Part shown: in pieces, positions 4,924-25,323 of the stretch
Numbering within the stretch: position 1 is the stretch's first letter
How the letters are laid out: each line of letters starts with the position of its first letter
Source: an uncultured Flavobacteriaceae bacterium
GTDB taxonomy: Bacteria; Bacteroidota; Bacteroidia; Flavobacteriales; Flavobacteriaceae
Length of the DNA: 64,000 nt
NCBI GenBank assembly: GCA_963835675.1
Contig: CAWIGH010000005.1
Coordinates: 271,874 to 335,873 of the forward strand
Direction of reading: 5' to 3'
Position numbers and translations under genes: made by a program
The notes under the pieces: model-generated
The model's database searches: none
Told to the model about the DNA's origin: nothing
What the model saw: only the letters and a program-made list of their open reading frames with translations

Positions 4924-4974
4924 CCCGCCTGCCACTATAAATATTTATTGAGGCGGGCAGGGGCGTTGTTGTGC
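4924..4974 (-). repeat. Terminal attC-like half-site S0 containing a 38-bp nested REP-like insert (4924-4961)
   Basis: Host TATA|GGCGTT-GTTGTGC; insert CCCG-CCTGCC-ACT-[ATAAATATTTATTGAGGCG]-GGCAGG, also present at 12582 and 18013. Confidence 0.7.
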
Positions 4975-5033
4975 TTTCGTGCTTTTCTCATCCTTTTCAT
5001 TTATGAAACGAACAGATGTTTATCAATATCTAA

Positions 5034-5441
5034 TTATTCTTTATCAAACCCATCAACAATGACTCCTCCCATAGATGCAGGAAAACCGAGTATTATTATT
5101 CTTTTCAAGGCAATTATGGGTTCGTCTAAAATTGGCATTCTGTTAAGTGCAAATAGAACAATAAAAACGATAATAAGGGCAATTCCATAATCAATAATGA
5201 TTCGTAAAACGAAATGGGATAATCTGTGCTTTATTTGTCCTTGAAATATTCCTTGAATAGAGTATAAACTTATAAATAATAACGATAAAAAAACTAGTAC
5301 TATTACATTAAGTAATGGTAACGTTTCGCTAAGTCTCCAAGATTCTTCTGAGAATGCTACAGGAACAGTCAATGCAGAGGACCCAACTATTACCTGAACA
5401 ATATCTTCTGTGTTGATAGATTTTTTGAAAGATTTAATCAT
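5034..5441 (-). CDS. DUF2391 / TIGR02587-like membrane protein (cassette C16)
   Basis: EDIVQVIVGSSALTVPVAFSEESW...FPASMGG; hydrophobic helices. Confidence 0.75.
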   Translation of the reverse strand: MIKSFKKSINTEDIVQVIVGSSALTVPVAFSEESWRLSETLPLLNVIVLVFLSLLFISLYSIQGIFQGQIKHRLSHFVLRIIIDYGIALIIVFIVLFALNRMPILDEPIIALKRIIILGFPASMGGVIVDGFDKE

Positions 5442-5539
5442 TTTTATTTATACAATTTACGCAACTGTTTGTATTAAACATTTAATATTTCTTGCATGAA
5501 GCCCAATGGTTTGTAAGTGGTTAGTTTCGGAAAATCCGA

Positions 5540-5560
5540 CTTGCCACGCCAAAGGCGTGG
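5540..5560 (+). repeat. 21-nt REP-like unit (leader + hairpin)
   Basis: CTTG-CCACGCC-AAA-GGCGTGG in the loop of the AAAATCC/GGATTTT sub-hairpin. Confidence 0.75.
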
Positions 5561-5659
5561 TGGATTTTCCGACGTAGGGGCAAGTTAATTAATTCATGTG
5601 ACACGAGCAACGCGAACTGGCGCAAGCAATTTCCTGCGCGTAAATTAAGTAGCAATTAA

Positions 5660-5698
5660 CCTGCCTGCCGGTTTACCCGCCTCTGGAGGGCAGGCAGG
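5660..5698 (+). repeat. 39-bp nested REP-like composite, identical to 8877-8915
   Basis: CCTGCCTGCCGG-[TTTA-CCCGCC-TCT-GGAGGG]-CAGGCAGG inserted at AA|TTATA. Confidence 0.85.
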
Positions 5699-5765
5699 TT
5701 ATACACGTTGTCGGCAGTAGTACTTATAATTATTTAAATTTATACAACCAAGCAATAGCATTTTG

Positions 5766-7838
5766 TTACTTTAATTTCATCAATAAGTATGAAAATGTCA
5801 TAGCACTAGATTTTGCACTTTGTTCATTTGTCGATGAGCCTCCATGACCGCCTTCAATGTTTTCATAGTAATAGATAGGATGTCCCATATCAATCATTTT
5901 AGCTGCCATTTTTCTTGCATGGCCGGGATGAACGCGGTCATCACGAGTAGACGTATAAAAGTAGACTTCTGGATAATCCACATCTTTTTTTAGATTGTGA
6001 TATGGAGAGTATTTTTTAATATATTCCCATTCTTCTGGGATATCTGGATTTCCATATTCTCCCATCCAACTGGCTCCTGCAAGTAATTTATTATAGCGTT
6101 GCATATCTAACAACGGAACTTGACAAACCACTGCATTATATAGGTCAGGTCTTTGTGTAAAGGCAACGCCAACTAATAAGCCACCGTTACTGCCTCCCAT
6201 AATACCTAAATGTTTTGGTGATGTTATCTTTTTCTCAATTAAATCTTCAGCTACGGAATGGAAATCATCGAAAACATTTTGTCGCTTTTCCTTTAATCCA
6301 GCCTGATGCCATTTTGGACCAAACTCACCACCACCACGAATATTGGCAAGAACAAATACACCACCATTATCTAACCATGACGTTCCGAAAGTAGCAGAAT
6401 AAAATGGTTCTTGCGAGATTTCAAATCCACCATAAGCGTAAAGTAAGGTCGCGTTATTTCCGTCGGCCTTCATGGTTTTAGATGATACCATAAAATAGGG
6501 TATGAGTGTTCCGTCTTTTGATTTTGACATGAACTGATTGACTTTATATTTGTCACCGTCAAAATACGTTGTAAGCGATTTAAAAGGTTTTAGTGTATTA
6601 GTGTCTGCATTTGCGATGTATAAGGTTGTTGGTGTAAGGAAGTTGTTATATGTGAAAAAATATTCATCTGATAAATCACTCAAATCCATAATAGAAATTG
6701 TTCCAAAATCGGGTGCATTTACTTTTTCACTTATCCATTTATTATTCTCATAAGAATAGATAAATAGTTCACTAATTACATTGTGAAGTAAGGTTATTAG
6801 GAGCTTGTTTTTTGTACTTGAAACCCCAGTTATACTTGATGATTCATCAGGTTGAATAATTAGTTGAATCTCTTTTTGTCCGTTTAGTAATTTAGTAAAA
6901 TTTAAACTTAGTAGTGAGCCTTGTTTATAGGTTTTATCATCTACGATCCAATCTGATTTTAATTGAATAATTAACTGGTTATTCAGCAGATTTTGAGGAG
7001 AGGCATCGCCAGGTATATCTAATTTTATTTGTTTATCGTCAACCAATATAAAATAAGAAATATCAGTCCTAGAAACGTAGCGAACAACGGTTTTATACTT
7101 TGTTGAACCGTCTCTAAATATAAATCCCGATGCTAGGATATCTTCCTTTTCGCCTTCATACAGAAGTGTCGCGTCTTTTAATAATGTTCCTCTTTCCCAT
7201 AGTTTAACTTGTCTTGGATATCCGGAAGTCGTCATGGTATTTTCACCAAAATCGGAAGATAAAATCAAGTTGTTTTTGTCCACATAACTTGCACTTCCCT
7301 TAGATTCTGGAACATAAAAACCATCGGCTATAAATGTCTTTGTATTTACATCAAATTCTTTTTTAATCGTGGCATCACCACCACCTTTTGAAAGGCTAAC
7401 AATAAATCGATCATAATCTGGATATAAACCAGTCGCACCTTTATAAACCCATTTTATATCATCAGTTTTAGACATTTCATCTAAATCTAAGAGTATTTCC
7501 CACGTTGGGTTTCCATTTATGTATTCTTTTTTTGGACTTCTTCTCCAAATACCTCTTACATGATCTTTATCTTTCCAGAAATTATAAACAAATTCACCGT
7601 AGGTTGAAGGGTAAGCAATGCGATCTTTAGAATTATATATTTCTAGAGATTTATCGTAAATGGCTTGATATTCAGCTATGCTACTTAATTTGTCTTGGGT
7701 TATTTTGTTTTGCTTCTTCACGAATTCTAATGATTTTTCGCCGTCGATGTCTTCTAACCATAGGTAAGGATCTTCTTGGGCTTGCATTGTAAATAGTGAA
7801 GTGAAAATTGCTAGAAAAAATAAAGTGTTCTTTGTCAT
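5766..7838 (-). CDS. Prolyl oligopeptidase family (S9A) serine peptidase, secreted (C15)
   Basis: Signal peptide, EDPYLWLED, GGSNGG nucleophile, DDRVHPGH, EGGHG. Confidence 0.93.
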   Translation of the reverse strand: MTKNTLFFLAIFTSLFTMQAQEDPYLWLEDIDGEKSLEFVKKQNKITQDKLSSIAEYQAIYDKSLEIYNSKDRIAYPSTYGEFVYNFWKDKDHVRGIWRRSPKKEYINGNPTWEILLDLDEMSKTDDIKWVYKGATGLYPDYDRFIVSLSKGGGDATIKKEFDVNTKTFIADGFYVPESKGSASYVDKNNLILSSDFGENTMTTSGYPRQVKLWERGTLLKDATLLYEGEKEDILASGFIFRDGSTKYKTVVRYVSRTDISYFILVDDKQIKLDIPGDASPQNLLNNQLIIQLKSDWIVDDKTYKQGSLLSLNFTKLLNGQKEIQLIIQPDESSSITGVSSTKNKLLITLLHNVISELFIYSYENNKWISEKVNAPDFGTISIMDLSDLSDEYFFTYNNFLTPTTLYIANADTNTLKPFKSLTTYFDGDKYKVNQFMSKSKDGTLIPYFMVSSKTMKADGNNATLLYAYGGFEISQEPFYSATFGTSWLDNGGVFVLANIRGGGEFGPKWHQAGLKEKRQNVFDDFHSVAEDLIEKKITSPKHLGIMGGSNGGLLVGVAFTQRPDLYNAVVCQVPLLDMQRYNKLLAGASWMGEYGNPDIPEEWEYIKKYSPYHNLKKDVDYPEVYFYTSTRDDRVHPGHARKMAAKMIDMGHPIYYYENIEGGHGGSSTNEQSAKSSAMTFSYLLMKLK

Positions 7839-7881
7839 TATTTATAATTTAGTGTTGTGTTTTTATTTTAAAGGGTATTAT

Positions 7882-7988
7882 TGCCAACGTTTGGGCTCGT
7901 ATGTTTTTCCGATGAGAAATCAAGCGGGTTAAATATACTAAACTTTGGTGTTTCACAAAACCACAATAGATTATAGCCATTGTTAGCT
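7882..7988 (-). repeat. attC-like site S2 (107 bp)
   Basis: TGCCAAC...GTATG ... TTATAgccatt-GTTAGCT; shares GAGAAATCAA.CGGGTTAAA with S3. Confidence 0.8.
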
Positions 7989-7992
7989 ATAG

Positions 7993-8736
7993 TTATTTTG
8001 AAATTAATTCATCCAATTTGGCTTTTAACTCAGGGACTGTATGTTTTATATTACGCGTTTCAGACACTTCTAACTTTATTCCATTTGAAATAAAATTTAT
8101 AATGCCATTTTTGTCTACTAATAAAATTTTTGGATAGCTCTCTGGCTTGAAAGTATTCTTTAATAGTTCCTCTTGATCTGTTATAATATCAAAATCAAAT
8201 GGTTTCCTTTTTAAGAAGTCAATTACCTTAGTTTTAGAATCGAATGTTATCGCAATGAAATTAGCATTCGAGTCATATTCAGCTTTTAGTTTATTTAGCT
8301 CTGGAATTTCCTTTAAACAAGGTGTGCAGTTGACAAACCATAAGTTGATAAATGTTACTTTTCCCTTAAGTATTTTATTATTTATTTTGATGTTAGTTAG
8401 TGTTATCAAATCTAAATCAGGCAATTCTTCGTTTTGTAAATTAAAAATTGCATCTCTCTTATAATCAACTTTTCTTAAATCCAAACTTAGTTTGACAAAA
8501 GTTATAGTTGAATCATTACGAGTGATTGTATTTCCTAATTCGTAACTAACACTCTTAGCGATAAATCCATATTTTTCAACGGAAGTCTTGTTGTAATTGT
8601 CTTTTGTTTTATTTAAAAACACTTGAATACTATCCTTGTCTGATAGTATTCTCTCAGTACCCTCGATTTGAAAATACTCTTGAGATATCAAAATTGATGT
8701 AAATAAGGCAAAACAAATGCATGCAATCTTTTTCAT
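7993..8736 (-). CDS. TlpA-family thiol-disulfide oxidoreductase (C14)
   Basis: LKGKVTFINLWFVNCTPCLKEIPELN (CxxC), YPKILLVDKNG. Confidence 0.88.
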   Translation of the reverse strand: MKKIACICFALFTSILISQEYFQIEGTERILSDKDSIQVFLNKTKDNYNKTSVEKYGFIAKSVSYELGNTITRNDSTITFVKLSLDLRKVDYKRDAIFNLQNEELPDLDLITLTNIKINNKILKGKVTFINLWFVNCTPCLKEIPELNKLKAEYDSNANFIAITFDSKTKVIDFLKRKPFDFDIITDQEELLKNTFKPESYPKILLVDKNGIINFISNGIKLEVSETRNIKHTVPELKAKLDELISK

Positions 8737-8783
8737 AATTATAGCTAACGTTAGAGCTATGGTTTCGTTGCGGGATCGTCCGT

Positions 8784-8804
8784 CCCGCCGTGCTTTGGCG
8801 TGGG
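8784..8804 (+). repeat. 21-nt REP-like unit
   Basis: CCCGCCGTGCTTTGGCGTGGG between GTCCGT and AGGAC. Confidence 0.7.
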
Positions 8805-8876
8805 AGGACTATTCCGCTGAGAAATCAAACGGGTTAAAGATATAAATATTTAAGATAGAGTAAAAGCCATGCTGAA

Positions 8877-8915
8877 CCTGCCTGCCGGTTTACCCGCCTC
8901 TGGAGGGCAGGCAGG
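8877..8915 (+). repeat. 39-bp nested REP-like composite
   Basis: Exact copy of 5660-5698, again at AA|TTATA. Confidence 0.85.
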
Positions 8916-8944
8916 TTATAGACATTGTTATAGCCAGTTATTTT

Positions 8945-9754
8945 TCATTTATTATTGTAATTTTTCCAAAATTCTTCACATCTTTCTTTTTCGGCTTGTT
9001 TTAAAATTGTAAAACCTAGTTCAATTGCTTTATAAAAATCATCACAGGCTTTCATTTTTTCTCCGACCTCATATAAAGCCAATCCACGAAGAAAGTAAGC
9101 ATTTTTATTATTTGGGTCTAACGATATTGCTTTATTACAATCAAATACTACTCCGTTCAAGTCATTTGGAAATCTAGTTCCAGCCCTGTTTACATAAACT
9201 CTTGCGTTTAAAGTGTCTTTTAATAAATATTTATCAAAATCATCTTTTGCCAGTTTGGTCATACCTGTTGCTAAATATATCCTTGCTCTATTTAAATATG
9301 ATTCAGGTTCTGGCGATTTTGATATTTCATCATCAAGAGTCTTTAAAAGATTATCGAAATCAGGTCTTGTCCAAAATCCCATAGTAGTTTTTATCCTTCC
9401 ACTACAATCGTCATCGATTAAGTCAAAAGAGACATAGTAATCTGTTAGATAAACCTTGTACTGCCCATAGCCTTTGCACATTTGCCCTTCTTTATCAATA
9501 AATTTGATTGTATCTCCTGACAATTCATATGTTGCAATAACATCTACGGTTTGGTCATTTCCAAAATCGCCTGCGATCAATCCGTTGTCTTTAAACTCAA
9601 AGCCGATTGGACCAGTTTGTCCGATCCTTACCCACTTACCAATTAGCGTATTTTCAGACTTTGTACTTGTCTTATTATTTTGCTTTTTACTAGAATTGCA
9701 GGCAAAAAAAATTCCACTTGAAAGGAGGATCAAAAAAAATAATTTTGTTTTCAT
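8945..9754 (-). CDS. TPR-containing lipoprotein (C13)
   Basis: Lipobox FFAC; TPR motifs (YLNRARIYL, AYFLRGLALY, ACDDFYKAIELG). Confidence 0.8.
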   Translation of the reverse strand: MKTKLFFLILLSSGIFFACNSSKKQNNKTSTKSENTLIGKWVRIGQTGPIGFEFKDNGLIAGDFGNDQTVDVIATYELSGDTIKFIDKEGQMCKGYGQYKVYLTDYYVSFDLIDDDCSGRIKTTMGFWTRPDFDNLLKTLDDEISKSPEPESYLNRARIYLATGMTKLAKDDFDKYLLKDTLNARVYVNRAGTRFPNDLNGVVFDCNKAISLDPNNKNAYFLRGLALYEVGEKMKACDDFYKAIELGFTILKQAEKERCEEFWKNYNNK

Positions 9755-9798
9755 CTTTATCTTTTTTTTTGTTTGACAATGCTGCTTTTTAAAATTGG

Positions 9799-9914
9799 AT
9801 ATAACATTGTTGTATAAGATTAGTTGCGTGTTTTAAGCGACTAATTTAGCAAATACAAACCGAATAGACACGAGCGTAGCGAACTGGCGTAAGCAATTAT
9901 AGCCAGTGTTAGCC
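9799..9914 (-). repeat. attC-like site S4 (116 bp)
   Basis: ATATAAC-attgttGTATAAG ... TTATAgccagt-GTTAGCC. Confidence 0.82.
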
Positions 9915-9972
9915 TATCGTTATTATGTTCAAGTTTAGTTAAAAATTCTAATTATATAGTTTATGAATGTAA

Positions 9973-10743
9973 TTACATTGTTAATGTGAGTCCGCCATCT
10001 ACAGTAAGCGTTGAGCCAGAAATATAACTGGATTCATCTGAACAAAGAAACACAATAGCATTTGCAATCTCTTCCGGGCGACCAATTCGTTGTAAATGTA
10101 CGGTAGGAAGCAGTCCTTTATCGTACAAGTCGTCACCAACAATACCTCTCAGGCGTTGGTGCATAGGTGTTTCAGTAATACCCGGACATAAAAGGTTTAC
10201 TCTAATGCCCTTAGGTCCTAATTCGGCAGAGACACTGGTCGTTAATCCAATAAGACCGTGTTTAGATGTTACATAGGCCGATCCGGTTGGAAAACCGAGA
10301 AATGAATTCACTGAGCCTATATTCACAATTGCACCACCCAAACCAAGTTTAAGCATGGCTCTGGCCTCATATTTCATGCAAAGAAATGTTCCCTTTAAGT
10401 TGATGTCAAGAACCTGATCCCAATCATCTTCAGCAAGGTCAGTTATTCCATTTAGTTTTCCTTCAATACCGGCATTATTTATTGCATAATCCAAACGGCC
10501 AAATACTTCGATAGTATGAGCGACCATTTGCTCTACGCTTTTAGCAATCGAAACATCGGTCTTGATTGCAGACGCCTTGCCACCCTTTGCTTCAATAGAA
10601 GCTACTAAGCTATCAAGTTTCTCTTTTCGACGTGCTGCGACTACTACACTTGCACCATTCGCTGCAAAAGCTTCGGCAGTAGCTCTTCCAATACCACTAC
10701 TTGCTCCAGTTATAAGTACGACTTTTTCTTTCATATTACTCAT
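9973..10743 (-). CDS. SDR-family NAD(P)-dependent oxidoreductase (C12)
   Basis: TGASSGIG, NNAG, YVTSK. Confidence 0.92.
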   Translation of the reverse strand: MSNMKEKVVLITGASSGIGRATAEAFAANGASVVVAARRKEKLDSLVASIEAKGGKASAIKTDVSIAKSVEQMVAHTIEVFGRLDYAINNAGIEGKLNGITDLAEDDWDQVLDINLKGTFLCMKYEARAMLKLGLGGAIVNIGSVNSFLGFPTGSAYVTSKHGLIGLTTSVSAELGPKGIRVNLLCPGITETPMHQRLRGIVGDDLYDKGLLPTVHLQRIGRPEEIANAIVFLCSDESSYISGSTLTVDGGLTLTM

Positions 10744-10814
10744 TTGATTTCTTTTTAATTGGTTAGTATAATTTAAAATATTTTATCGTTGGTTTTTTGG
10801 TTGGTCATAATGTT

Positions 10815-10865
10815 GGCTAACGTGTTTGTGTATGATTTCGTTGCGCCTGCCTGCCGCAGGCAGGC
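10815..10865 (-). repeat. Truncated attC-like site S5 (one arm only) ending in a 19-nt REP-like unit (10846-10864)
   Basis: GGCTAAC-gtgtttgtGTATG-atttcgttgcg-[CCTG-CCTGCC-GCA-GGCAGG]; no TTATA...GTT arm follows. Confidence 0.72.
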
Positions 10866-10870
10866 TTTCG

Positions 10871-11206
10871 TTATCTTTCACTACTTGAACTCTTTGCACT
10901 CAATTCGTTTTTCAAATCTAATTGAAGTTTTTTGTTTGCCATTAAAAGATCTTCAAGCGCTGTTATGGCCCATGATGTTTTAATGCCTAAATCAAACAAC
11001 ATTTGATCTAACTCCACATTACCGTACTGTTCTTTTAGTTTGGGGTAGGACAAAATATTTTTTTCTCTGAGTTTATAATAATTTAGTTGATAATTATTAA
11101 ATAATTCTCTTGCATCATTGATTCCATTTTTTGCTAAAAATGGTTTTAATCAATCTTCTTTGAAACCCCATAACGGTTCAGAAGCGTCACGTACAAAAAT
11201 TTCCAA
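10871..11206 (-). pseudogene. Gene remnant with an in-frame TGA (11150-11152) and no clear start
   Basis: Frame continues upstream of ORF 10871-11053: LEIFVRDASEPLWGFKED*LKPFLAKNGINDARELF... Confidence 0.55.
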
Positions 11207-11207
11207 T

Positions 11208-12344
11208 CTAAATTAACTGATATACCATTATCTTCTTTTCTTTCCCTTTAACACTTACCTCCCCCCAGGGTTTTGTTGAAATAATTGCTTTGGTTTTTTT
11301 ATAAATGGATTCACTTATTAGAATGGCATTGGAAAGATCTGAGGTCAATGCTTCTATCCTTTTTGCTGTGTTTACAACATTACCGGTAATTGCATAGGTA
11401 AGTCTATCATCAGAACCAAGGTTTCCGGCTATTATTGGACCATAATTTAATCCAATACCTATTGTAATTTTCTCCGGTAAAATATCCTTTAAGTCCTTAT
11501 TGATCTCTTCCAGCTTTTTTATCATTTCGATTGCACAATAAGCGGATGAAATTTCAGGATCTTTAATTGGTAAGGGAGCGCCAAAAGTAGCGAAAATTTC
11601 GTCACCCGTAAATTGATTTATGACTCCATTGTGCATTTTAATTACATCTGCCATCTTTGAATAATACGTATCAAGTATGCGTACTACCTCTATAGGATTC
11701 AATTTTTCCACAATCGGGGTAAATCCTCTAATATCACAAAAAAGTAGTGCCACATTCAACTTGACACCTTCCTTAATGTCTTTTTTGTTATCAGCAATAG
11801 CGTTTTTTACGATCGACTCTGGAACATATTTCACAAATAGATCTAACGTTTTTTTCTGTTTTTCTGTCAGAGAAAGAAGTTTGGTATTTGCTTGTTCGAT
11901 TTCTTTGATTCGTTTTAATTCCCTTTTTCTTGCCTTCTCCAGTCTGTTTTCGATCTTAACATTTTCAGTTATATCATTCTGAACAGCCAGCAACTGATCG
12001 AGTTCTCCATTGATATCAAATACTGGGGCAATAGACCACTCCATATAAAATTCAGTTCCATCCTTTTTGTAATTAATTGTCTTCCCTTTCCATGCTTCTC
12101 CGGTATCGAGGATTTCCCCTAAATTTCGAAAGATATTTAGGTTTGTTTTAGAGCCTTGCAGAATTCTTGGACTTTTACCGATTACTTCCTCTCTGCTCCA
12201 ACCCGTCATTTCTTCAAAAGCTTTATTGACATAAATAATATAGGGCCCGGGAGAATCAAGTTCTGTAGTAGTAATCAATATACTTTGAGTCATTGCCTCT
12301 AATAATTTGATGGTGTTATATGAATATGGTTCTGGATTGTGCAT
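11208..12344 (-). CDS. PAS-domain class III nucleotide cyclase (C11)
   Basis: PAS (YVNKAFEEMTGW, IGKSPRILQG, NYKKDG) + coiled coil + FCDIRGFT, FTGDEI, GNVVNTAKRIE. Confidence 0.88.
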   Translation of the reverse strand: MHNPEPYSYNTIKLLEAMTQSILITTTELDSPGPYIIYVNKAFEEMTGWSREEVIGKSPRILQGSKTNLNIFRNLGEILDTGEAWKGKTINYKKDGTEFYMEWSIAPVFDINGELDQLLAVQNDITENVKIENRLEKARKRELKRIKEIEQANTKLLSLTEKQKKTLDLFVKYVPESIVKNAIADNKKDIKEGVKLNVALLFCDIRGFTPIVEKLNPIEVVRILDTYYSKMADVIKMHNGVINQFTGDEIFATFGAPLPIKDPEISSAYCAIEMIKKLEEINKDLKDILPEKITIGIGLNYGPIIAGNLGSDDRLTYAITGNVVNTAKRIEALTSDLSNAILISESIYKKTKAIISTKPWGEVSVKGKEKKIMVYQLI

Positions 12345-12572: not shown

Positions 12573-12581
12573 TTAATTATA

Positions 12582-18063: not shown

Positions 18064-18126
18064 ATTGTAGTTTTTTTATTTTGAAAATATTTTTTTATTT
18101 TTATTTTATAATTAAAATTCTGTGTC

Positions 18127-18486: not shown

Positions 18487-18488
18487 GT

Positions 18489-19538
18489 TTATTTATTAAG
18501 TTTAATAAATTCATATGTTTTCTCACTTAAGTTTAGAATGACGTGATAACTTCCTGATTTAACCTTAATATTGTCGCCATAGAAATAGGTGTTACCAAAA
18601 GGAAATTCATCTCCTCCCCAATTAAAATTCCAATTTTCACCTTCTCTGAATTTAAGCGAACCGTCGGATAAAATGATATCTCCCTCCCAGATTGCCTTTG
18701 ATTCATTAGTTAATGTAAGAGGAAAGTTTTTGGTCCAGTTATTATGTTGAGTTGCATCTCCTACAAGCCCAATATTTGAATAAAGTAATTTAACCTTTGG
18801 ATAATAGTCTTGAATCAAGCGTTTATTAGTATTTGTTAAGTTGATGATATTATCTATGAAAATCAAACTCGTAAATTTTATACTTCTTGATGATTTTAGA
18901 GCGTTTTGAAACGTAGAACTCTCAAGTAGTTTGAGGGTACGTTTGATATCGCTATCATCAAAAAAGGTAGAATCCATATTTTGATAATCATTTAATGCAG
19001 AATAACCAAAAGTAATGCTTGGATAGGGTAAATTCAATTCATCTAAAAATGATGTGATATCTTTCCTACTGCCATTATAACCTTCCTTAATCGCTTTACC
19101 GTATGAAGAAAGGCTCTTGTTTAAATTACTCTGCTTTTGATTTTTAGGGTTGAATTTAAGGTAACCCAAAAGATATGAAATTTCAGAGTTTAAATCAGAA
19201 GGTTCTAAATCCAAGTAAAACAATAAATGCGGTAGCAATTTATTATTTATGCCTTCAGGATTCTGAACTATGTTATCTATAATTTCTATCTGTTTTGATA
19301 CTTGACGTCTAATTAGAGTAAGATTTTCTGAATCTTGGTCTATGACAGTATACATTTGTTGTAAAACAGCCTTAAATTCATCATTGGTTTTCCTTGATTC
19401 GTTCCAGTTGTTTAATTGTAGGGCAATCAAAATTCCGATTACTACAAGAAAAATTTCGCCTAAAGCATATTTAAAATACTTTCCAGTTTTGTTTTCCATG
19501 AGCAAGTTTTGGCGAATTTTTCTAAAGAATTTTATCAT
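18489..19538 (-). CDS. DUF6090-type membrane-anchored protein with C-terminal SusE/SusF-like beta domain (C6)
   Basis: MIKFFRKIRQ...KYALGEIFLVVIGILIALQLNNWN; C-terminal LKFREGENWNFNWG...SGSYHVILN. Confidence 0.75.
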   Translation of the reverse strand: MIKFFRKIRQNLLMENKTGKYFKYALGEIFLVVIGILIALQLNNWNESRKTNDEFKAVLQQMYTVIDQDSENLTLIRRQVSKQIEIIDNIVQNPEGINNKLLPHLLFYLDLEPSDLNSEISYLLGYLKFNPKNQKQSNLNKSLSSYGKAIKEGYNGSRKDITSFLDELNLPYPSITFGYSALNDYQNMDSTFFDDSDIKRTLKLLESSTFQNALKSSRSIKFTSLIFIDNIINLTNTNKRLIQDYYPKVKLLYSNIGLVGDATQHNNWTKNFPLTLTNESKAIWEGDIILSDGSLKFREGENWNFNWGGDEFPFGNTYFYGDNIKVKSGSYHVILNLSEKTYEFIKLNK

Positions 19539-19562
19539 TGGTTAGCGGTTTCTGATAATGAA

Positions 19563-19757
19563 GCACAACGGTTTAGCTATGAACAGTACGGGAGCAAACT
19601 AGCGTTTGCTTTCCGCCACGCACATAGCGAAATCTTTTTGTTTTGTTTTTTCTTTTTTTGTTTAAAGCAAAATCCCAAAGATTTTGCGGACTTCATAAAA
19701 ATACGCAAACCCTACGAATAAGCCCGAAACCCGTATTGTTTATAGGTTGTGTTATAT
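19563..19757 (-). repeat. attC-like site S11 (195 bp)
   Basis: GCACAAC...TATGAACAGTACGGG ... CCCGTATTGTTTATA-ggttgt-GTTATAT. Confidence 0.85.
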
Positions 19758-19769
19758 GGCGTTATTATT

Positions 19770-20387
19770 TTATTTCAAAAACGGTATTGCAGGTAAATAC
19801 CAACTTTGTTTTCCCTTTTTTATCCTTATATAATTTTTAAATATTAATATAAGATTATATAAATAAAGAATTCCTGTAAGAACAACATAGATTATTTCTT
19901 TATCCATTCTAAAATTGATTAAGGATAATACTATATCAAAAAGGTTAAAATCAAATTTAATATATGAACCTTTTGTTGCTACCATAAAAATGGAATATAT
20001 CAACAAAGTCCAAGTAATCTGAAAACTGATTATTTTTTTTCCATAATTGTCTACAAATTTTATTTTGTCTTTTTTCAAAATCCACATTACTAATGGGATT
20101 ATTATTCCTAATAATGGATTAAATAATAGACCTGTTAAGGCACTTAAGTTCAAAAGAGTCAGATATCCTTTATCTTCAATATCTGTCCATTCTAAAAGGT
20201 CGTCTGGAGTTACTCCAAGAGCTTGTGTTAATTTTATCAACGTATCGCCTCTCGGGATTGATTCGCCTTTTTCAATTCGTTGAACTGTTCTTAGGCTTAA
20301 TTTTGATTCTTCCGATAATTGCTCTTGAGAAAATCCTTTTCGGCTTCGTAAGTCTTTAATTTTAATTGCTAAGTTTTGATTATTCAT
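19770..20387 (-). CDS. XRE-family HTH regulator fused to a DUF4870-like membrane domain (C5)
   Basis: IKDLRSRKGFSQEQLSEESKLSLRTVQRIEKG; LGIIIPLVMW...GKKIISFQITW. Confidence 0.85.
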   Translation of the reverse strand: MNNQNLAIKIKDLRSRKGFSQEQLSEESKLSLRTVQRIEKGESIPRGDTLIKLTQALGVTPDDLLEWTDIEDKGYLTLLNLSALTGLLFNPLLGIIIPLVMWILKKDKIKFVDNYGKKIISFQITWTLLIYSIFMVATKGSYIKFDFNLFDIVLSLINFRMDKEIIYVVLTGILYLYNLILIFKNYIRIKKGKQSWYLPAIPFLK

Positions 20388-20413
20388 TTTGGACTATTTT
20401 AATGATTACTCAG

Positions 20414-20472
20414 CAAAGATATTTTTATGTTGTTCTAGTTGTTGCGTCATTATTATGTCAATCTTATGACAT
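20414..20472 (-). promoter_or_regulatory. Cassette-internal promoter and palindromic operator
   Basis: Perfect Bacteroidota -7 box TATCTTTG (minus, 20414-20421); ATGTCA-n6-TGACAT palindrome at 20455-20472. Confidence 0.65.
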
Positions 20473-20497
20473 TTCTGCCAGTGTTCGGCTTAAATGC

Positions 20498-20630
20498 AAA
20501 TAACGGTCTCGTATAACCGTCAGTTACGGGATTAAAGTTAATAATTTTCGTTTTGGCACTGACCTTAGTAATTCCGAGTGGATTCGGACGTAGTCGAATC
20601 CGCCGTAATTGCGGTTATACATTGTTGGCA
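20498..20630 (-). repeat. attC-like site S12 (133 bp)
   Basis: AAATAAC-ggtctc-GTATAACCG ... CGGTTATAC-att-GTTGGCA. Confidence 0.87.
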
Positions 20631-20670
20631 ACAGGCTTTTTATCATTTCTATAATTAGAGTTTTCAACTT

Positions 20671-21339
20671 TTAATCATTATTTGGTCTTTCAGGAATGTA
20701 AACAAGATCAATTTCGATATCATTTCCATATTTAACAATCATAGAACATAGGACAGAGACACTTTTTCCATTGTTAATAGCGGGCTTCATTATCGGCATT
20801 TTTCTAAGCACTCTCAAAATTTCAGCTTGAATGGTTACTTCCGCATCTCTGACTTTCATGCCGGTTAAATTTCCGTTTTCAGTGATTATAAAAAAGGCTT
20901 CAACCTTTTTTGGTTCTGAAAGATTTAATTCTTTCAATAAACTCAAGTTAAATTCACGCTTTACAAATGCCGCTACTTTTTCATTGAAACATTCTCTTGT
21001 TTGTTCTATTGAGAGTTCCTCACAACCATTATATACTGGGGCAATTTCTACATCTTTTAATATCATACTATTGTCAGTAGTATAATTAGCTAAACCGTCA
21101 TCGTGAGATACAATGCTACATAAACTTAATAAAGCCTGTTCCTCTATTTCTGTCATATTTCCTTGTGCCATCACTTGTTCCTGAACAGCATTTATTTTCG
21201 TTATTAAATCACTTTCTGTGTTTTTTACCGAGTTGGATTCTTCCTTACAAGAAAAGCATAATAGAACAATAAAAATGGTTGAAACGACCATTAAATTTTG
21301 TGATTTAAATTTTGTTTTACGATTAAATTTGTATTTCAT
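20671..21339 (-). CDS. Lipoprotein with a TonB C-terminal-like domain (C4)
   Basis: Lipobox CFSC; APVYNGCE, FIITENGNL, LRVLRKMPIMKPAINNGKSV. Confidence 0.7.
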   Translation of the reverse strand: MKYKFNRKTKFKSQNLMVVSTIFIVLLCFSCKEESNSVKNTESDLITKINAVQEQVMAQGNMTEIEEQALLSLCSIVSHDDGLANYTTDNSMILKDVEIAPVYNGCEELSIEQTRECFNEKVAAFVKREFNLSLLKELNLSEPKKVEAFFIITENGNLTGMKVRDAEVTIQAEILRVLRKMPIMKPAINNGKSVSVLCSMIVKYGNDIEIDLVYIPERPNND

Positions 21340-21362
21340 AATTTTTTGGTTTTTCAGCTTGT

Positions 21363-21493
21363 TGACAACGGTTTTGTGTATGAGCAGTAGCAGATTTAAG
21401 CAACTACTTTTCGGGATACAAGATAATTTAATTTAATGAAATAGCGGTTCAGGTTGACACCCAAACCGCTATTGCTTATACACGTTGTTTTGC
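21363..21493 (-). repeat. attC-like site S13 (131 bp)
   Basis: TGACAAC-8nt-GTATGAGCAGTAGC ... GCTATTGCTTATAC-5nt-GTTTTGC. Confidence 0.87.
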
Positions 21494-21532
21494 AACGTTT
21501 TTTATAAATTCTTTCTACTTATTTTTATTAAA

Positions 21533-22300
21533 TTAATCTTTATTAAAAGTTACTTTACCTGTTTCCATATCATAAAGAGCAGATATAATCATAATTTCTC
21601 CATTATCTTCCATCTTTGCCATTGTTGGTGATTGCTCTCTTATATTTTTTACAGTACGCATCGCATTGTTGTTGATAACAAGGTCTGTAAATTCAGCATT
21701 TTTGGTAGAGCGCTCACCATCGAATTCAGTTTCATTTACAGCTGGTTGTATTTCATCGATTAGGTCTGCAAGAGAGTTCATACCTAATGCTTTAGCATCA
21801 ACTTCATCAATAGTAGATTTGACTGCACCACAGGCCGTATGTCCCATTACAATGACTACTTTAGAACCAGCTACAGCAGTAGCAAATTCCATTGAGCCAA
21901 CGATATCAGCATTTTCAATATTACCTGCGACACGTGCTACGAAAATATCACCTATGCCTAAATCAAATACATCTTCTACAGGTACACGACTATCTACGCA
22001 CGAAAGAACAATAGCTTTAGGGTATTGGCCTATCATCGCTTTTCTACGTTGTGCTGAATGGTCGCGTTGGGTTAGATTATTATTTATAAAATTCTCATTA
22101 CCCTTTTTTAAACGCCCAATGATTTCTTGAGGTGTCATTTCAGCTTGTTCTTCAGCTGTTAATATACTCTCAACAACCTTTTCTTCAACAAGTTCTGTTT
22201 GTGAATTTTGTGCTGTTGGTTCTTGTTTTTTTGTTTCCTGACAAGATGTTAAAAATAATAGTGTCAAGAAAGTGGTCAATGGTAAAAATAGTTTTCTCAT
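21533..22300 (-). CDS. Beta-class carbonic anhydrase, lipoprotein (C3, gene 2)
   Basis: Lipobox LTSC; SCVDSRVP, RVAGN, GHTACGAV. Confidence 0.93.
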   Translation of the reverse strand: MRKLFLPLTTFLTLLFLTSCQETKKQEPTAQNSQTELVEEKVVESILTAEEQAEMTPQEIIGRLKKGNENFINNNLTQRDHSAQRRKAMIGQYPKAIVLSCVDSRVPVEDVFDLGIGDIFVARVAGNIENADIVGSMEFATAVAGSKVVIVMGHTACGAVKSTIDEVDAKALGMNSLADLIDEIQPAVNETEFDGERSTKNAEFTDLVINNNAMRTVKNIREQSPTMAKMEDNGEIMIISALYDMETGKVTFNKD

Positions 22301-22324
22301 ATGTTTATAGTTTAAAGTGAAAAT

Positions 22325-23023
22325 TTATAGTGTGTGGTGTAGGCTAAATTGTAATTGTCCTTTTTGCCAATTAGTGGTGGTCTGCTCCATCCATCCGAAT
22401 TGTAATCTCAAATTGTTCTTTAATGCATAACCAATACCTAAATAGGTTCTGTTTCGGTCAAAAAACTCAACATTACGCCCATTACCAATATTACGCTCTC
22501 CATTAATAAATAACTCATTATAAAATGCGAAATATGGCGTGCCTTTAGCTAAGGTTGTTCCTTTGAATGGAACATTTACGAAGAGGTTGTAACGATAGCG
22601 TGTTCTAAAATCTTGATTTTCCACCCATCTTTGTTCATAACGAAACCTATGTGTTAATAAAAGTCTTTTAAGAATTGTATTTGAGAACAAGGCTTCTTGA
22701 TATATACGATTTTCAGAAACAGGATTATCTATATCAGCACCGAACTGTCCTGTTGTAATATTGGCAAAACCAAGCGTGAATTTAACTCCTGAATCTGATG
22801 GTTTATATGTTAAACCAGACCGTAACAGTAACTGTTCCCTATCTCCGAGTCCTCGCCAATCACGGTATTGAAAATCTCCCTGAACTCCCCAATTAGATTC
22901 TTTGAAAGTTGTATTATAAAAATACATATACCAAGCCCCTAATTGATTGTTATCTGGTTCTTGGGCATTAACTTGTAATAAAGTTAGCAAACTGATAGTG
23001 AAAGGTAAAAGGATTCTTTTCAT
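22325..23023 (-). CDS. DUF2490-family outer-membrane beta-barrel (C3, gene 1)
   Basis: GAWYMYF, QLLLRSG, HRFRYEQRW, FDRNRTYLGIGY. Confidence 0.85.
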   Translation of the reverse strand: MKRILLPFTISLLTLLQVNAQEPDNNQLGAWYMYFYNTTFKESNWGVQGDFQYRDWRGLGDREQLLLRSGLTYKPSDSGVKFTLGFANITTGQFGADIDNPVSENRIYQEALFSNTILKRLLLTHRFRYEQRWVENQDFRTRYRYNLFVNVPFKGTTLAKGTPYFAFYNELFINGERNIGNGRNVEFFDRNRTYLGIGYALKNNLRLQFGWMEQTTTNWQKGQLQFSLHHTL

Positions 23024-23103
23024 ATTGTTTAATGTTATTTGATAAAATTAAAACAAAAACAATACCGTAATTATATTGAGAACCGCATTTTAATAAAAAA
23101 TTA

Positions 23104-23137
23104 ACAGTATTACTTGTTGTGTTAATAGTGTTACTTT
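23104..23137 (-). promoter_or_regulatory. Two operator-like copies resembling the TetR palindrome at 26922-26934
   Basis: ACAGTATTACTTG (10/13) at 23104 and ATAGTGTTACTTT (11/13) at 23125 versus ATAGTATTACTAT. Confidence 0.5.
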
Positions 23138-23162
23138 CAATAAAGATGATTCACGAAATCTT

Positions 23163-23314
23163 GCACAACGTTTCTGTATATGATTTGTGCGGCTTAAAAT
23201 CCGTCCCGCCACGCCTTGGCGTGGGAGGATTTTCAGCTATTCAAATCAGATATTAAATATAATAGTTTTTAAATGATGTAGGAATGCAAGCATGAATTAT
23301 ATACGTTGTTGGCA
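23163..23314 (-). repeat. attC-like site S14 (152 bp) with a REP-like insert at 23205-23225
   Basis: GCACAAC-6nt-GTATATGATTTGTGC ... GCATGAATTATATAC-3nt-GTTGGCA. Confidence 0.87.
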
Positions 23315-23322
23315 GCAGTTAT

Positions 23323-24256
23323 TTATTTATCTGTTCCAAATTCAAGTTGTCGCTCGTATTCTTTATTCATCAAAATAGCCTTTTGATTCTTGGATTAATC
23401 CATCCTCATTTATAGTCCATTCCTCAAATCCGCTAATGTTTACTTTATTTCCAGTTCCATTGGTTCCGTTATTTGTTCCAGTCAAGTGTCCAATAGAATC
23501 GTGTTTTGTCCGATTTAGTAATTAGACTATCCATTGAAACAATCATATCCGGAAAAGCATCCATAAATCCTTTAGCAACATTTGTTATTGCTTCAGTACC
23601 TTTTGCTGGTTCCCCATCATTTATCTGTAGAACGCCATCTTCAGCGAAAAAGGAGGAGACAAAATTTGGTCTTTGACTGCACCACACTTGTGCGTAACTC
23701 TTGGCAAAAACCTCCAAATCAAATTTTTTCAACTCTTCTGGTAAGGGTGTATTTGTGAATGAGATGTTAATGAATTTCCATTCACCATCTTCCTTGATTA
23801 GGGTGAAATTGTCGATGTTATTTGTCCGTGGAACACCATATGAATGTAGGGTAGCATCAGCCCAAACAAAAGCGATTTGTCCTTTATTTATAAGGATTTT
23901 GTATTCATTCACAGGTTCATAAAAGGGCTTCCGTTCTCGGTTTTTTTGTGATTCAAAATATTCGCCAATTGTGATGACGGAATTTTTCGAGACTCCATCT
24001 CGAACTATTGCACTTCCCAAGTTTGCCTTGTCTGAAATTATGGAATCCAAAGTCTGAAAGTCAGAATTACCTACAGCAAACAAGAGCTTTTCTACAAGGG
24101 CTATTAATTCTTGTTCCTCCGCATTCCAAGTATTTTCTTTTTGTGCTTCAACAACCTTTTCAGTCTATTTAGTTTTATTTGATTGGACTGACAACTAAAA
24201 AATAAGCTAGAAACAACTACAAGAGATAATATTACAATACTCAATGTTTTTTTCAT
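23323..24256 (-). CDS. Tandem NTF2/SnoaL-like lipoprotein, broken by at least three indels (C2)
   Basis: MKKTLSIVILSLVVVSSLFFSC; core ORF 23469-24083; C-terminus ...TGTNNGTNGTGNKVNISGFEEW...EYERQLEFGTDK* recovered in shifted frames. Confidence 0.72.
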
Positions 24257-24275
24257 AATTGGATTTTTTAATTGC

Positions 24276-24409
24276 TGCCAACGGTTTTGTATAAGAATAA
24301 TTGCGTGTGCAAGCCACTAACTTACTAAAAATGGAACGAACCAGAGGAAAATCCGTAGGATTTTCCGAGAAGGTAAGAAGCAAGCAATTATTTTTACACG
24401 GTGTTGGCA
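24276..24409 (-). repeat. attC-like site S15 (134 bp)
   Basis: TGCCAAC-6nt-GTATAAGAATAATTGC ... GCAATTATTTTTACAC-3nt-GTTGGCA. Confidence 0.87.
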
Positions 24410-24417
24410 CAAGTATT

Positions 24418-25242
24418 TTATAATTCATATTTCCATTTTTGAGTTTCATTGTCGAAAGCTATACTAAATCCTCTCATAGAATTGACAGGTATGTTCGTTT
24501 CTTTGTGCCTTTTTATTTCCCATTTTGAAATTTTACTAACCAGTTCTATTGCATCTTTTTGAAATTCGGTCAGAGGTTTTTTAATTGAAACCTCAAATTT
24601 GATTGGAAGATTAAAATTAGAATCTATTTCGGTTTTATATCCTCTATTGGTTGTAACAGAGATTAATTTTCCATTTTTGTCAATAAGCAGTTTTAAAAAA
24701 GAATGAGGATTTTCATAGTTCTTTTTTTTACCAAGTTTTAAAATTGAATCTACATTTGTAATTGGGTTTGGATAATTAAAGTCGTTCTCTAAAAAATAAA
24801 TATAATTTTCAATTTTAAAAGAATTCCCATTGTCAAATACTCTTTGTTCTTTTTCTGATATATTTCTTTTATCAGTTGGTTTAGAATTTGAGCAAAAATA
24901 TCCAAAAGTCAGTTTGTTGTTTCTGCGTTTAGCATAGACAAGCCAATTTTCGCCAATTTCCACATTCCAATCACATGAAGTCCAAATTCCAGTATAATCT
25001 CCTTCAGAATTTAAAGTAAATTCCAATGTTGTAGGTTCGTTGCTTTTTTTATAATGTTTTAAAATATCAAAGGTAATTTTGTAAGTAAGAGAATCAGATG
25101 AATATACTTTAGAAACAGCTTTTCCTTCAAAGACATATTCAGCTGAAAAAAATTCAAGTGCAGGTTTTGGAACATCACAAACACAAGAAAATGCTCTTGT
25201 GAAAACTAGTGTTAAAATTAATGTAGCAATGATTTTTTTCAT
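24418..25242 (-). CDS. Secreted hypothetical protein with a Cys-containing NTR/TIMP-like N-terminus (C1, first cassette)
   Basis: Signal peptide then SCVCDVP...AEYVFEGKA...WTSCDW...YFCSNS. Confidence 0.72.
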   Translation of the reverse strand: MKKIIATLILTLVFTRAFSCVCDVPKPALEFFSAEYVFEGKAVSKVYSSDSLTYKITFDILKHYKKSNEPTTLEFTLNSEGDYTGIWTSCDWNVEIGENWLVYAKRRNNKLTFGYFCSNSKPTDKRNISEKEQRVFDNGNSFKIENYIYFLENDFNYPNPITNVDSILKLGKKKNYENPHSFLKLLIDKNGKLISVTTNRGYKTEIDSNFNLPIKFEVSIKKPLTEFQKDAIELVSKISKWEIKRHKETNIPVNSMRGFSIAFDNETQKWKYEL

Positions 25243-25247
25243 ATTTG

Positions 25248-25323
25248 TGCCAACTCGTTATATGTGGAACTAATATACACATTATCCCTATTTTTTTCCG
25301 GATAAGAGGAAATTTTGTTATCC
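25248..25323 (-). other. attI-like head site of the array
   Basis: Lone core (minus strand CATATAACGA-GTTGGCA) with no partner inverted arm upstream; TTATCC/GGATAA hexamers at 25282, 25300 and 25318. Confidence 0.6.

What the first reader, a model, noticed from the sequence alone, without database searches (positions are those of the whole stretch)
4968..25254. Each unit's start core is complementary to its own end core: the footprint of circular cassette intermediates
Seen (hand-aligned). For each unit I compared the core at its start with the reverse complement of the core at its end. C1 25245-25254 TTGTGCCAAC vs 24403 GTTGGCACAA: 10/10. C2: 10/10 (TGCTGCCAAC). C14: 13/14. C9: 12/13. C4 and C13: 11/13. 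C7: 10/12. C8 and C12: 7/7. The mean 7-bp match is about 6.1/7 across 15 testable units, versus about 4.4/7 when the two ends of each contiguous site are compared (S7 and S12 only 3/7). Only C10 fails (4/7). Established: integron recombination crosses at G|TT, so each array site is a hybrid whose last 6 bp come from the next cassette. Inference: these units were inserted as discrete circles by G|TT crossover.
Basis: partly seen in the sequence, partly recalled or inferred. Interest (0 to 1): 0.9.

Follow-up and report, generated by a model that had tools for sequence, protein, structure and literature searches.

The report
Integron-like cassette array, complementary ends
Sixteen genes in a marine flavobacterial chromosome each carry matching sequences at their two ends, as expected if each was spliced in at a fixed three-base point; the system works like an integron, but the recombinase beside such arrays lacks the segment that defines integron integrases.

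Summary
With sites placed by a fixed rule, each unit's start core matches the reverse complement of its own end core at 6.06/7. The two ends of a contiguous site match at 4.31/7 and unrelated pairs at 4.30/7 (permutation p about 3e-6).

It also holds elsewhere. In 13 algorithmically detected arrays from 9 other genomes the values are 5.9/9 against 2.9/9 (p = 7e-37). It holds for the first cassette after the recombinase in 48 further genomes.

The paired stretch is 13 bp and has a conserved bottom-strand G·T wobble at position 11. Four copies of one attI-like head are identical up to GAG|TTG and then diverge into different cassettes.

Three qualifications apply:
- This is not a canonical integron. 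The genome has no IntI, and the associated recombinase, on another contig, is Xer-like and lacks the IntI-specific segment.
- Linkage to the hairpin body is also lost at the AAC triplet. Homologous genes keep both cores but sit next to different hairpins in 5 of 6 pairs. A G|TT-only crossover does not explain this.
- No circles were observed.

For integrons the rule is textbook. In this flavobacterial, rAID-like system it is new mechanistic evidence.

The parts
25254..25350 (-). attI-like head of the array. It includes a remnant of the last 60 nt plus the stop codon of the recombinase gene (25288-25350). It ends in ...CACATATAACGAG, and the crossover TT follows at 25253-25252.
   Evidence: About 95% identical to the sequence that follows and overlaps the 3' end of the recombinase gene at G000:C1 (L029:4555-4661). 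Homology stops right after GAG|TTG. The genome holds exactly two copies. The head consensus is conserved across about 45 recombinase loci from many genera.
24282..25253 (-). Cassette C1: a 274-aa ORF with no Pfam hit, plus hairpin site S1 (body 24283-24402).
   Evidence: Start core against own end core 12/13; 13/13 if the bottom-strand wobble is counted. S1 folds as a long imperfect hairpin.
23169..24281 (-). Cassette C2: SnoaL-like ORF plus site S2.
   Evidence: 12/13 cassette-wise against 6/13 site-wise. Pfam hit.
21369..23168 (-). Cassette C3: two genes (DUF2490 and a beta-carbonic anhydrase) plus site S3.
   Evidence: 10/13 with the 3-nt spacer rule. Pfam hits.
20504..21368 (-). Cassette C4: a 222-aa ORF plus site S4. 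This hairpin family recurs in many genera.
   Evidence: 11/13. The S4 body gives 84-93% hits in several genera.
19569..20503 (-). Cassette C5: HTH-DUF4870 ORF plus site S5.
   Evidence: 9/13 here. The homologue in G158 (L129) keeps 11/13, so the start core in the window has decayed by an indel.
17789..19568 (-). Cassette C6: a 349-aa ORF, an opposite-strand ORF at 18127-18486, and a long composite site S6 (267-nt body).
   Evidence: 7/13, weak. The body carries nested GC-rich hairpin modules.
16948..17788 (-). Cassette C7: a small ORF and a VanZ-like ORF plus site S7.
   Evidence: 11/13.
15027..16947 (-). Cassette C8, interrupted by an IS3-family insertion sequence (ORFs 16524-16895 and 15754-16380). 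Site S8 has lost its 5' inner arm.
   Evidence: Core 7/7, 10/13 overall. Pfam hits HTH_Tnp_1 and rve. The IS is multi-copy in relatives. S8 folds poorly.
13166..15025 (-). Cassette C9: M28 peptidase plus site S9.
   Evidence: 12/13. All four non-Watson-Crick positions of the S9 inner stem are G·T on the + strand.
12416..13165 (-). Cassette C10: DUF4440 ORF plus composite site S10.
   Evidence: The one clear failure: 4/7 and 6/13.
10821..12415 (-). Cassette C11: PAS-adenylate/guanylate cyclase plus a short, degenerate site S11 (48-nt body).
   Evidence: 5/7 and 7/13.
9805..10820 (-). Cassette C12: short-chain dehydrogenase plus site S12.
   Evidence: Core 7/7, 9/13 overall.
8749..9804 (-). Cassette C13: TPR protein plus site S13.
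   Evidence: 11/13. The homologue in G166 (86% identical) aligns up to the AAC and no further.
7888..8748 (-). Cassette C14: thioredoxin/AhpC-like ORF plus site S14.
   Evidence: 12/13.
5507..7887 (-). Cassette C15: S9 prolyl oligopeptidase plus site S15. Both of its triplets are mutated (GAC for AAC, ATT for GTT).
   Evidence: 10/13, or 12/13 with wobble. The mutated triplets can be read directly.
4767..5506 (-). Cassette C16: DUF2391 ORF plus the last site S16. The array ends against pstS.
   Evidence: 7/13. The flank is the pstSCAB-phoU operon.

Best explanation
Window 4767-25350 (genes on the minus strand) is a 16-cassette array of the integron-like gene-cassette system of marine Flavobacteriaceae.

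Sites. Between genes lie hairpin sites 62-281 nt long, counted from outer core to outer core. Each is bounded by an invariant AAC on the gene side and an invariant GTT on the far side. The inner stem is separated from the triplets by an asymmetric spacer, about 3 nt on the AAC side and about 6 nt on the GTT side. The strand that folds is the + strand of the window, the bottom strand relative to the genes.

The pattern. The 10 nt outside each triplet do not pair within a site. They pair with the core at the other end of the neighbouring gene, giving a 13-bp stem with a fixed bottom-strand G·T wobble at position 11. This pattern is expected if units are exchanged by a site-specific crossover inside or next to the invariant triplet of a folded single strand, as integron cassettes are at G|TT. 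A free circle would then rebuild a perfect stem.

The recombinase. It is inferred, from conserved adjacency in more than 45 genomes, to be a Xer-like tyrosine recombinase without the IntI-specific segment. This genome encodes it once, on another contig (C1:375665-376621). There it sits directly upstream of, and pointing the same way as, an identical attI-like head and a second, smaller array.

This array. It keeps the head and the last 60 nt of that gene but not the gene itself. It is therefore an orphan array that could be served only in trans. It is partly decayed: an IS3 insertion, two mutated triplets, and several weakened stems.

Shown:
- the complementarity and its statistics;
- the triplet-bounded break in linkage;
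- the shared head with different first cassettes;
- the strand bias;
- the absence of IntI.

Inferred:
- the exact cleavage bond;
- circular intermediates;
- which enzyme acts.
For: - Permutation tests in the window.
- Replication in 13 arrays of 9 genomes and in 48 recombinase-proximal first cassettes.
- At position 11 the pair is C against T in 77 of 83 cassettes.
- With strand-neutral detection, inner stems carry 289 A·C against 83 G·T on the gene-sense strand, so the wobbles fall on the bottom strand.
- Bottom strands of the 16 window sites fold slightly better in total, -380 against -359 kcal/mol.
- Four heads are identical up to GAG|TTG and then diverge.
- Linkage to the body ends at the triplet.
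- A compensatory A>C / T>G change at stem position 7 occurs in homologous cassettes of three genomes.
- The cassettes carry diverse, unrelated genes, all but one co-directional.
- Recombinase scores: XerA 204 bits, IntI 193 (cut-off 265), XerC 181.
- 18 residues of the recombinase stand where VchIntIA has 61.
- The recombinase lies next to arrays in relatives.
Against: - No excised circle or rearranged array was observed.
- The crossover cannot be placed within GTT, because all cassettes share it.
- Linkage also breaks at AAC, and genes swap downstream hairpins. A G|TT-only crossover does not predict this.
- Hybrid sites in arrays have no outer stem beyond 3 bp, so how excision substrates fold is open.
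- The genome's own recombinase (319 aa) lacks the roughly 75-aa N-terminal domain that most family members have, so its activity is uncertain.
- Recombinase function rests on association only.
Confidence: 0.75

Rival explanations
1. Two-sided modular exchange. Both invariant triplets are crossover points. The unit 'GTT-core, gene, core-AAC' and the hairpin body then assort independently. A gene can leave with either neighbouring hairpin, and either circle rebuilds the same perfect outer stem. This refines the best explanation rather than replacing it.
For: - Among 616 site pairs with at least 90% identical bodies, identity drops to background immediately outside both triplets.
- In 5 of 6 homologous cassette pairs the gene and both cores are conserved, but the bodies on both sides belong to other families. 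Homology is bounded exactly by GTT and AAC.
- The homologue of window cassette C13 aligns up to the AAC and then stops.
Against: - Only six informative pairs.
- The wobble bias says the top strand folds worse, so AA|C events on that strand should be rare.
- In integrons, top-strand events invert the cassette (PMC5027507).
- Conversion of hairpin bodies to the local type by some other route is not excluded.
Confidence: 0.35
2. This is an ordinary integron remnant (CALIN) whose canonical IntI is simply missing from the assembly or was lost. The Xer-like gene beside related arrays would then be a bystander.
For: - The genome is 96.9% complete.
- The site grammar (AAC...GTT, outer and inner stems, hybrid sites) is that of attC.
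Against: - No match reaches the IntI cut-off. The best is the Xer-like gene at 193 bits against 265.
- The head overlaps the 3' end of that very gene, in this genome and in about 45 others.
- Spacer geometry and the absence of extrahelical bases differ from attC (PMC5027507).
- IntegronFinder 2.0 reports almost no integrons in Bacteroidetes (PMC9024848).
Confidence: 0.03
3. Duplex recombination as at Xer/dif sites or pdif modules. Genes would be bracketed by inverted double-stranded sites, with no folded single strand involved.
For: - The recombinase is Xer-like.
- Genes are flanked by inverted repeats, as pdif modules are.
Against: - The outer cores vary freely in sequence but co-vary to stay complementary, including a compensatory change.
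- Non-Watson-Crick positions are G·T on one strand only.
- There is no 11-6-11 dif-like core.
- All of this points to selection on a folded single strand.
Confidence: 0.05
4. The complementarity is chance, or it reflects the terminal inverted repeats of small transposons.
For: None beyond the bare existence of inverted repeats.
Against: - Permutation p about 3e-6 in the window, and p = 7e-37 and 5e-12 in independent sets.
- The repeats differ between units, so no transposase could recognise them by sequence.
Confidence: 0.01

Closest known systems
Integrons (IntI, attI, attC cassettes), especially sedentary chromosomal integrons with a co-oriented ('inverted') integrase, and their integrase-less arrays (CALIN)
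   Same: - A fixed recombinase gene is followed by an attI-like site and a one-directional array of unrelated, mostly single-gene cassettes.
- Sites are imperfect hairpins with an outer (R) and an inner (L) stem and invariant AAC/GTT triplets.
- The bottom strand is the one built to fold.
- Array sites are hybrids, so a cassette's start pairs with its own end. This is the textbook consequence of the crossover between G and TT (PMC8876359, PMC5027507).
   Different: - The recombinase lacks the IntI-specific segment: 18 residues where VchIntIA has 61. It scores below the IntI cut-off.
- The outer stem is 13 bp, freely variable, with a fixed G·T wobble, not the 7-bp RYYYAAC consensus.
- The spacer is about 6 x 3 nt instead of 5-6 on each arm, and no extrahelical bases lie in the first 12 bp of the inner stem.
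- Bodies are about 115-270 nt and contain nested hairpins.
- The gene and the downstream hairpin are separable.
- The phylum is held to be nearly integron-free (PMC9024848).
rAID-1 (recombinase-associated acquired interbacterial defence) clusters of Bacteroidales (Ross et al. 2019; bioRxiv 10.1101/471110)
   Same: - Bacteroidota.
[quoted passage not shown]
   Different: - The paper describes only motif enrichment. It gives no hairpin sites, crossover point or cassette boundaries.
- Its cargo is immunity genes. Here the cargo is peptidases, a dehydrogenase, a carbonic anhydrase, a cyclase and others.
- Homology of the two recombinases could not be tested here.
Xer/dif recombination and pdif modules of Acinetobacter plasmids
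   Same: A Xer-type tyrosine recombinase, with gene modules bracketed by inverted sites.
   Different: - No dif-like 28-bp duplex core.
- The sites are long hairpins with strand-specific wobbles.
- The arrays are headed by a dedicated recombinase gene.

Membership tests
Integron (IntI/attI/attC) | Integrase of the IntI family carrying the IntI-specific additional segment (I2 helix region) | tested here: not met
   The best TIGR02249 score in the own genome is 193 bits against a cut-off of 265, in two stretches that skip profile positions 180-238. P0066 residues 282-299 stand for VchIntIA residues 185-245.
Integron (IntI/attI/attC) | Cassette sites are imperfect hairpins with R and L boxes and conserved AAC/GTT triplets | tested here: met
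   Seen in the 16 window sites and in more than 140 sites in relatives.
Integron (IntI/attI/attC) | Crossover at G|TT, so array sites are hybrids and a cassette's start pairs with its own end | tested here: met
   Resolution is limited to the triplet.
Integron (IntI/attI/attC) | Extrahelical bases in the L box on the arm opposite the triplet, and a spacer of 5-6 nt on each arm (PMC5027507) | tested here: not met
   Ungapped 12-14-bp inner stems start next to spacers of about 3 nt (AAC side) and about 6 nt (GTT side). Strand asymmetry is carried by the spacer and by G·T wobbles instead.
Integron (IntI/attI/attC) | The cassette is the gene plus its downstream attC, inherited as one unit | tested here: not met
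   In 5 of 6 homologous pairs the downstream hairpin body belongs to another family. Linkage is lost outside the AAC triplet.
Integron (IntI/attI/attC) | An attI next to the integrase gene, where cassettes are inserted | tested here: met
   A conserved head lies directly after or overlapping the recombinase stop codon. Different first cassettes join it at the same GTT.
CALIN (cluster of attC sites lacking an integrase nearby) | At least two cassette sites with no integrase within a few kb | tested here: met
   No recombinase gene was found among the ORFs of the array and its flanks that were scanned (window 488-29491), and the recombinase search of the whole genome placed none in the window's range. 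The only family recombinase is on contig C1. The sites are non-canonical, so the label applies by analogy.
rAID-1 (Ross et al. 2019) | A 5' XerD-like recombinase at least 44% identical to B. fragilis BF9343_RS08045 | not testable with these tools
   The reference protein could not be fetched. The criterion is quoted from the paper.
rAID-1 (Ross et al. 2019) | Two or more co-directional downstream genes of low G+C, with repetitive intergenic sequences | tested here: met
   Met at the C1 locus and in relatives. The window array is 32.9% G+C against 34.8% for the genome, a small difference. The window array itself has no recombinase.
rAID-1 (Ross et al. 2019) | Cargo is interbacterial immunity genes | tested here: not met
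   The cargo is peptidases M28 and S9, an SDR, a beta-carbonic anhydrase, a PAS-cyclase, TPR and thioredoxin-like proteins and others.
Xer/dif or pdif modules | Duplex 11-6-11 dif-like core sites bracketing the modules | tested here: not met
   The sites are long hairpins with variable, co-varying outer cores.

The most novel reading that the evidence does not exclude
Gene modules and hairpin bodies are independent building blocks that exchange at both invariant triplets, GTT and AAC. A gene flanked by its two complementary cores could then leave with either neighbouring hairpin and adopt the local hairpin type of a new host. This would be a two-sided cassette grammar run by a Xer-like enzyme without the IntI insertion. 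It would be either an independent invention of the integron principle or a picture of its ancestral state.
Probability: 0.3. Interest if true: 0.85.

Novelty: new variant of a known kind. Interest (0 to 1): 0.62.

Why it matters
For classical integrons, start-to-end complementarity of cassettes is the decades-old argument that fixed the crossover at G|TT. As an integron fact it is not new.

What matters is where it is seen. The array belongs to a system widespread in marine Flavobacteriaceae: 489 recombinase relatives among species-representative genomes. Standard integron finders would probably miss it, although I could not run one here. Its recombinase lacks the segment held to be essential for recognising folded attC sites.

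The pattern is direct sequence evidence that this system also recombines folded single strands at a fixed triplet. It gives exact, testable junction predictions. It also exposes two departures from integrons: a 13-bp free-sequence stem with a fixed wobble, and separability of the gene from its hairpin. Both bear on how integrases evolved from Xer recombinases and on how cassettes are made.

Tried and rejected
- Rfam: no family matched anywhere in the window. attC is not in that library.
- An IntI profile search over 151 genera of the family at E <= 1e-40 rang nowhere, including the controls. It is uninformative and I do not use it as evidence of absence.
- Homologues of the M28 peptidase of C9 in four genomes were not in clean cassette contexts and gave no boundary test.
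- A loose hairpin scan (10 of 12 pairs) was too noisy, so I tightened the criteria.
- I tried to settle which neighbouring hairpin travels with a gene by comparing homologous cassettes. The first sets gave only 2-3 pairs. A wider search showed that neither hairpin is reliably linked. This became a finding rather than an answer.
- The inverted-site orientation (gene plus upstream hairpin) was considered and rejected as the sole rule. The head lies on the GTT side next to the recombinase in all loci, and upstream bodies differ too.
- A strict genome-wide hairpin scan found no third array in this genome, and the head exists in exactly two copies.
Full report
**What is there.** Window 4767-25350 holds genes almost all on the minus strand, separated by structured spacers. 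The genes are unrelated to one another. They include a SnoaL-like protein, DUF2490 with a beta-carbonic anhydrase, an HTH-DUF4870 protein, a VanZ-like protein, an M28 peptidase, DUF4440, a PAS-cyclase, a short-chain dehydrogenase, a TPR protein, a thioredoxin-like protein, an S9 peptidase and DUF2391. An IS3-family element sits inside the eighth unit. The block lies between a broken porin gene and the pstSCAB-phoU operon. Read on the gene-sense strand, every spacer begins ...N10-AAC, then about 3 nt, then an inner stem arm. It ends with the other stem arm, about 6 nt, then GTT-N10. Most sites fold as long imperfect hairpins with branched middles.

**The observation.**
- I compared the 7 nt at each unit's start with the reverse complement of its own end. 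With my first site placement this gave 5.81/7, against 4.44/7 for the two ends of a contiguous site and 4.40/7 for all other pairings (p about 1e-5).
- Three sites had been placed with no spacer. I moved them to the 3-nt spacer rule that relatives show. The values became 6.06, 4.31 and 4.30, with p about 3e-6.
- Over positions 4-13 the values are 6.88, 3.62 and 3.38 out of 10.
C5, C6, C11 and C16 are weak.

**Independent replication.** BLAST of the array against 60 relatives showed that the hairpin bodies recur, clustered, in many genomes of the genus and family. I fetched such clusters. I detected sites with a rule that uses only the triplets, the spacers and the inner stem, never the outer cores.
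- In 13 arrays from 9 genomes the gene-flanking cores match at 5.89/9, contiguous sites at 2.87/9 and other pairs at 2.95/9 (p = 7e-37).
- Per position, pairing runs from 4 to 13, with one exception. Position 11 is C on the end core and T on the reverse-complemented start core in 77 of 83 cassettes. That is a G·T wobble on the bottom strand and a C·A mismatch on the top strand.
- With strand-neutral detection, the inner stems carry 289 A·C against 83 G·T on the gene-sense strand.
- The sites are therefore built to fold on the strand opposite the genes, as attC sites are (PMC5027507).

**The recombinase and the head.**
- The genome has no protein reaching the IntI cut-off.
- The best candidate is at C1:375665-376621 (P0001, 319 aa). 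It scores XerA 204 bits, IntI 193 (cut-off 265), XerC 181 and XerD 176.
- In a full-length relative, 18 residues stand where VchIntIA has 61, so the IntI-specific segment is absent. The protein aligns colinearly with XerA.
- Thirty-five nt after its stop codon lies ...CACATATAACGAG|TTG, followed by a cassette whose end core matches its own start 10/10.
- The window's array starts with the same head, about 95% identical over about 97 nt. This includes the last 60 nt of the recombinase reading frame. Upstream of that there is only the porin terminator.
- Two metagenomic relatives of the recombinase have the same head. All four heads are identical up to GAG|TTG and then continue into four different cassettes.
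- Among 80 recombinase loci from named Flavobacteriaceae genera, the head consensus ...TTATCCNG...CATATAACNA|GTT is conserved.
- In 48 loci with enough sequence, the first cassette's start pairs with its own end (mode 9/10, the mismatch being position 11), against 3.4/10 for shuffled partners (p = 5e-12).
- The window array is thus an orphan copy of a recombinase-headed element. The genome's own recombinase lacks the roughly 75-aa N-terminal domain that most family members have.

**Where the exchange happens.** Among 616 pairs of sites whose bodies are at least 90% identical, half of them from different genomes, identity is about 1.0 up to the base before GTT. It is at background from the first base after GTT. 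Together with the heads, this places a crossover in or next to the triplet. The bond G|TT itself is taken by analogy from integrons (PMC8876359, PMC5027507), because every cassette shares GTT.

The same profile shows an equally sharp drop outside the AAC triplet. I then looked for homologous cassettes in different genomes. In six informative pairs the gene and both outer cores are conserved. In the cassette found in three genomes there is a compensatory A>C / T>G change at stem position 7. In five of the six pairs the hairpin bodies on both sides belong to other families (identity 0.61-0.70, which is background). Homology starts at GTT and stops at AAC. One pair keeps an identical downstream body. 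Window cassette C13 and its 86% homologue in G166 also align up to the AAC and then stop. A crossover at G|TT alone never separates a gene from its downstream site, so something more happens. It may be a second exchange point at the AAC triplet, or replacement of hairpin bodies by the local type. I cannot tell which.

**Decay of this array.**
- Stems in recombinase-proximal cassettes of relatives are near perfect. Here the mean is 6.9/10.
- C5's start core has an indel relative to its homologue in G158, which still pairs 11/13.
- Site S15 has GAC and ATT in place of the triplets.
- S8 lacks an inner arm, and an IS3 element interrupts C8.
- This fits an array that no longer turns over often.

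**What is known.**
- For integrons the hybrid-site rule is textbook.
- IntegronFinder 2.0 found almost nothing in Bacteroidetes (PMC9024848).
- Full-text searches for integron or attC together with Flavobacteriaceae or Flavobacteriales found no description of such arrays.
- The nearest published relative is rAID-1 of gut Bacteroidales. It has a 5' XerD-like recombinase, co-directional genes and repeats 'reminiscent of integrons', described by motif enrichment only.
- Earlier notes of this scan describe the same flavobacterial system in other genomes. I treated them as leads and re-derived the points I use.

**Limits.**
- The enzyme-site link is by association.
- The swap of hairpins rests on six pairs.
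- The relation to the rAID-1 recombinase was not testable.

Noticed in passing
window 15754-16895: An IS3-family insertion sequence (HTH_Tnp_1 ORF plus an rve ORF, probably joined by a frameshift) lies inside cassette C8. Copies 81-88% identical are multi-copy in same-genus genomes and often sit at contig ends.
   Followed up: partly
window 488-1157, 3888-4734, 25527-26720: phoU, pstS and the porin upstream of the array are each split into two or more frames. These are either real pseudogenes or indel errors of the assembly.
   Followed up: no
window 4890-4969, 12548-12627, 17979-18058; also 5658-5711 and 8875-8928: GC-rich hairpin modules (for example GCCTGCCCGC...TATTTATAGTGGCAGGCGGG and CCTGCCTGCC...GGCAGGCAGG) are nested inside several hairpin bodies (S6, S10, S16; S13, S15). 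They are inserted right after the first bases of the inner stem and look like small mobile hairpins that target the sites.
   Followed up: no
window 15023-15101 and 17786-17864: A 79-nt module, 90% identical, forms the 3' part of sites S8 and S6, which belong to unrelated genes.
   Followed up: no
window 18127-18486 (+): The only sizeable ORF on the opposite strand within the array (119 aa, no Pfam hit). It lies inside C6. Homologues at 73-77% exist in G166 and G008.
   Followed up: partly
L129 (G158:C18) about 2737-2812: In the G158 homologue of cassette C5, the end core reads ...CGCCATATAAT and is followed directly by unrelated GC-rich sequence up to the contig end. This may be an element inserted exactly at the triplet. 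In integrons, group IIC introns target attC sites.
   Followed up: no
L029 (G000:C1) 3666-4625; L046, L047: The recombinase locus sits at a conserved chromosomal place downstream of thrS-infC-rpmI-rplT, both in this genome and in metagenomic relatives. This lineage has a short 319-321-aa form lacking the N-terminal domain, conserved down to 83% identity (P0002-P0004).
   Followed up: partly
L033 cassettes 2, 11, 19; window C6 start (19569-19557): The outer-core pair GTTGTGCTTCATTA / ATAACGAAAGCACAAC recurs on unrelated genes, so outer cores also come in families.
   Followed up: no
L036, L037, L048, L050 and other recombinase loci: In many draft genomes the contig ends within about 100 nt after the recombinase stop codon. 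These arrays break assemblies and are probably under-counted.
   Followed up: no
L043 (G001:C13) 7565-8371: In G001 a 41%-identical recombinase lies divergent from the neighbouring array, the classical integron layout, not co-oriented with it as elsewhere.
   Followed up: no
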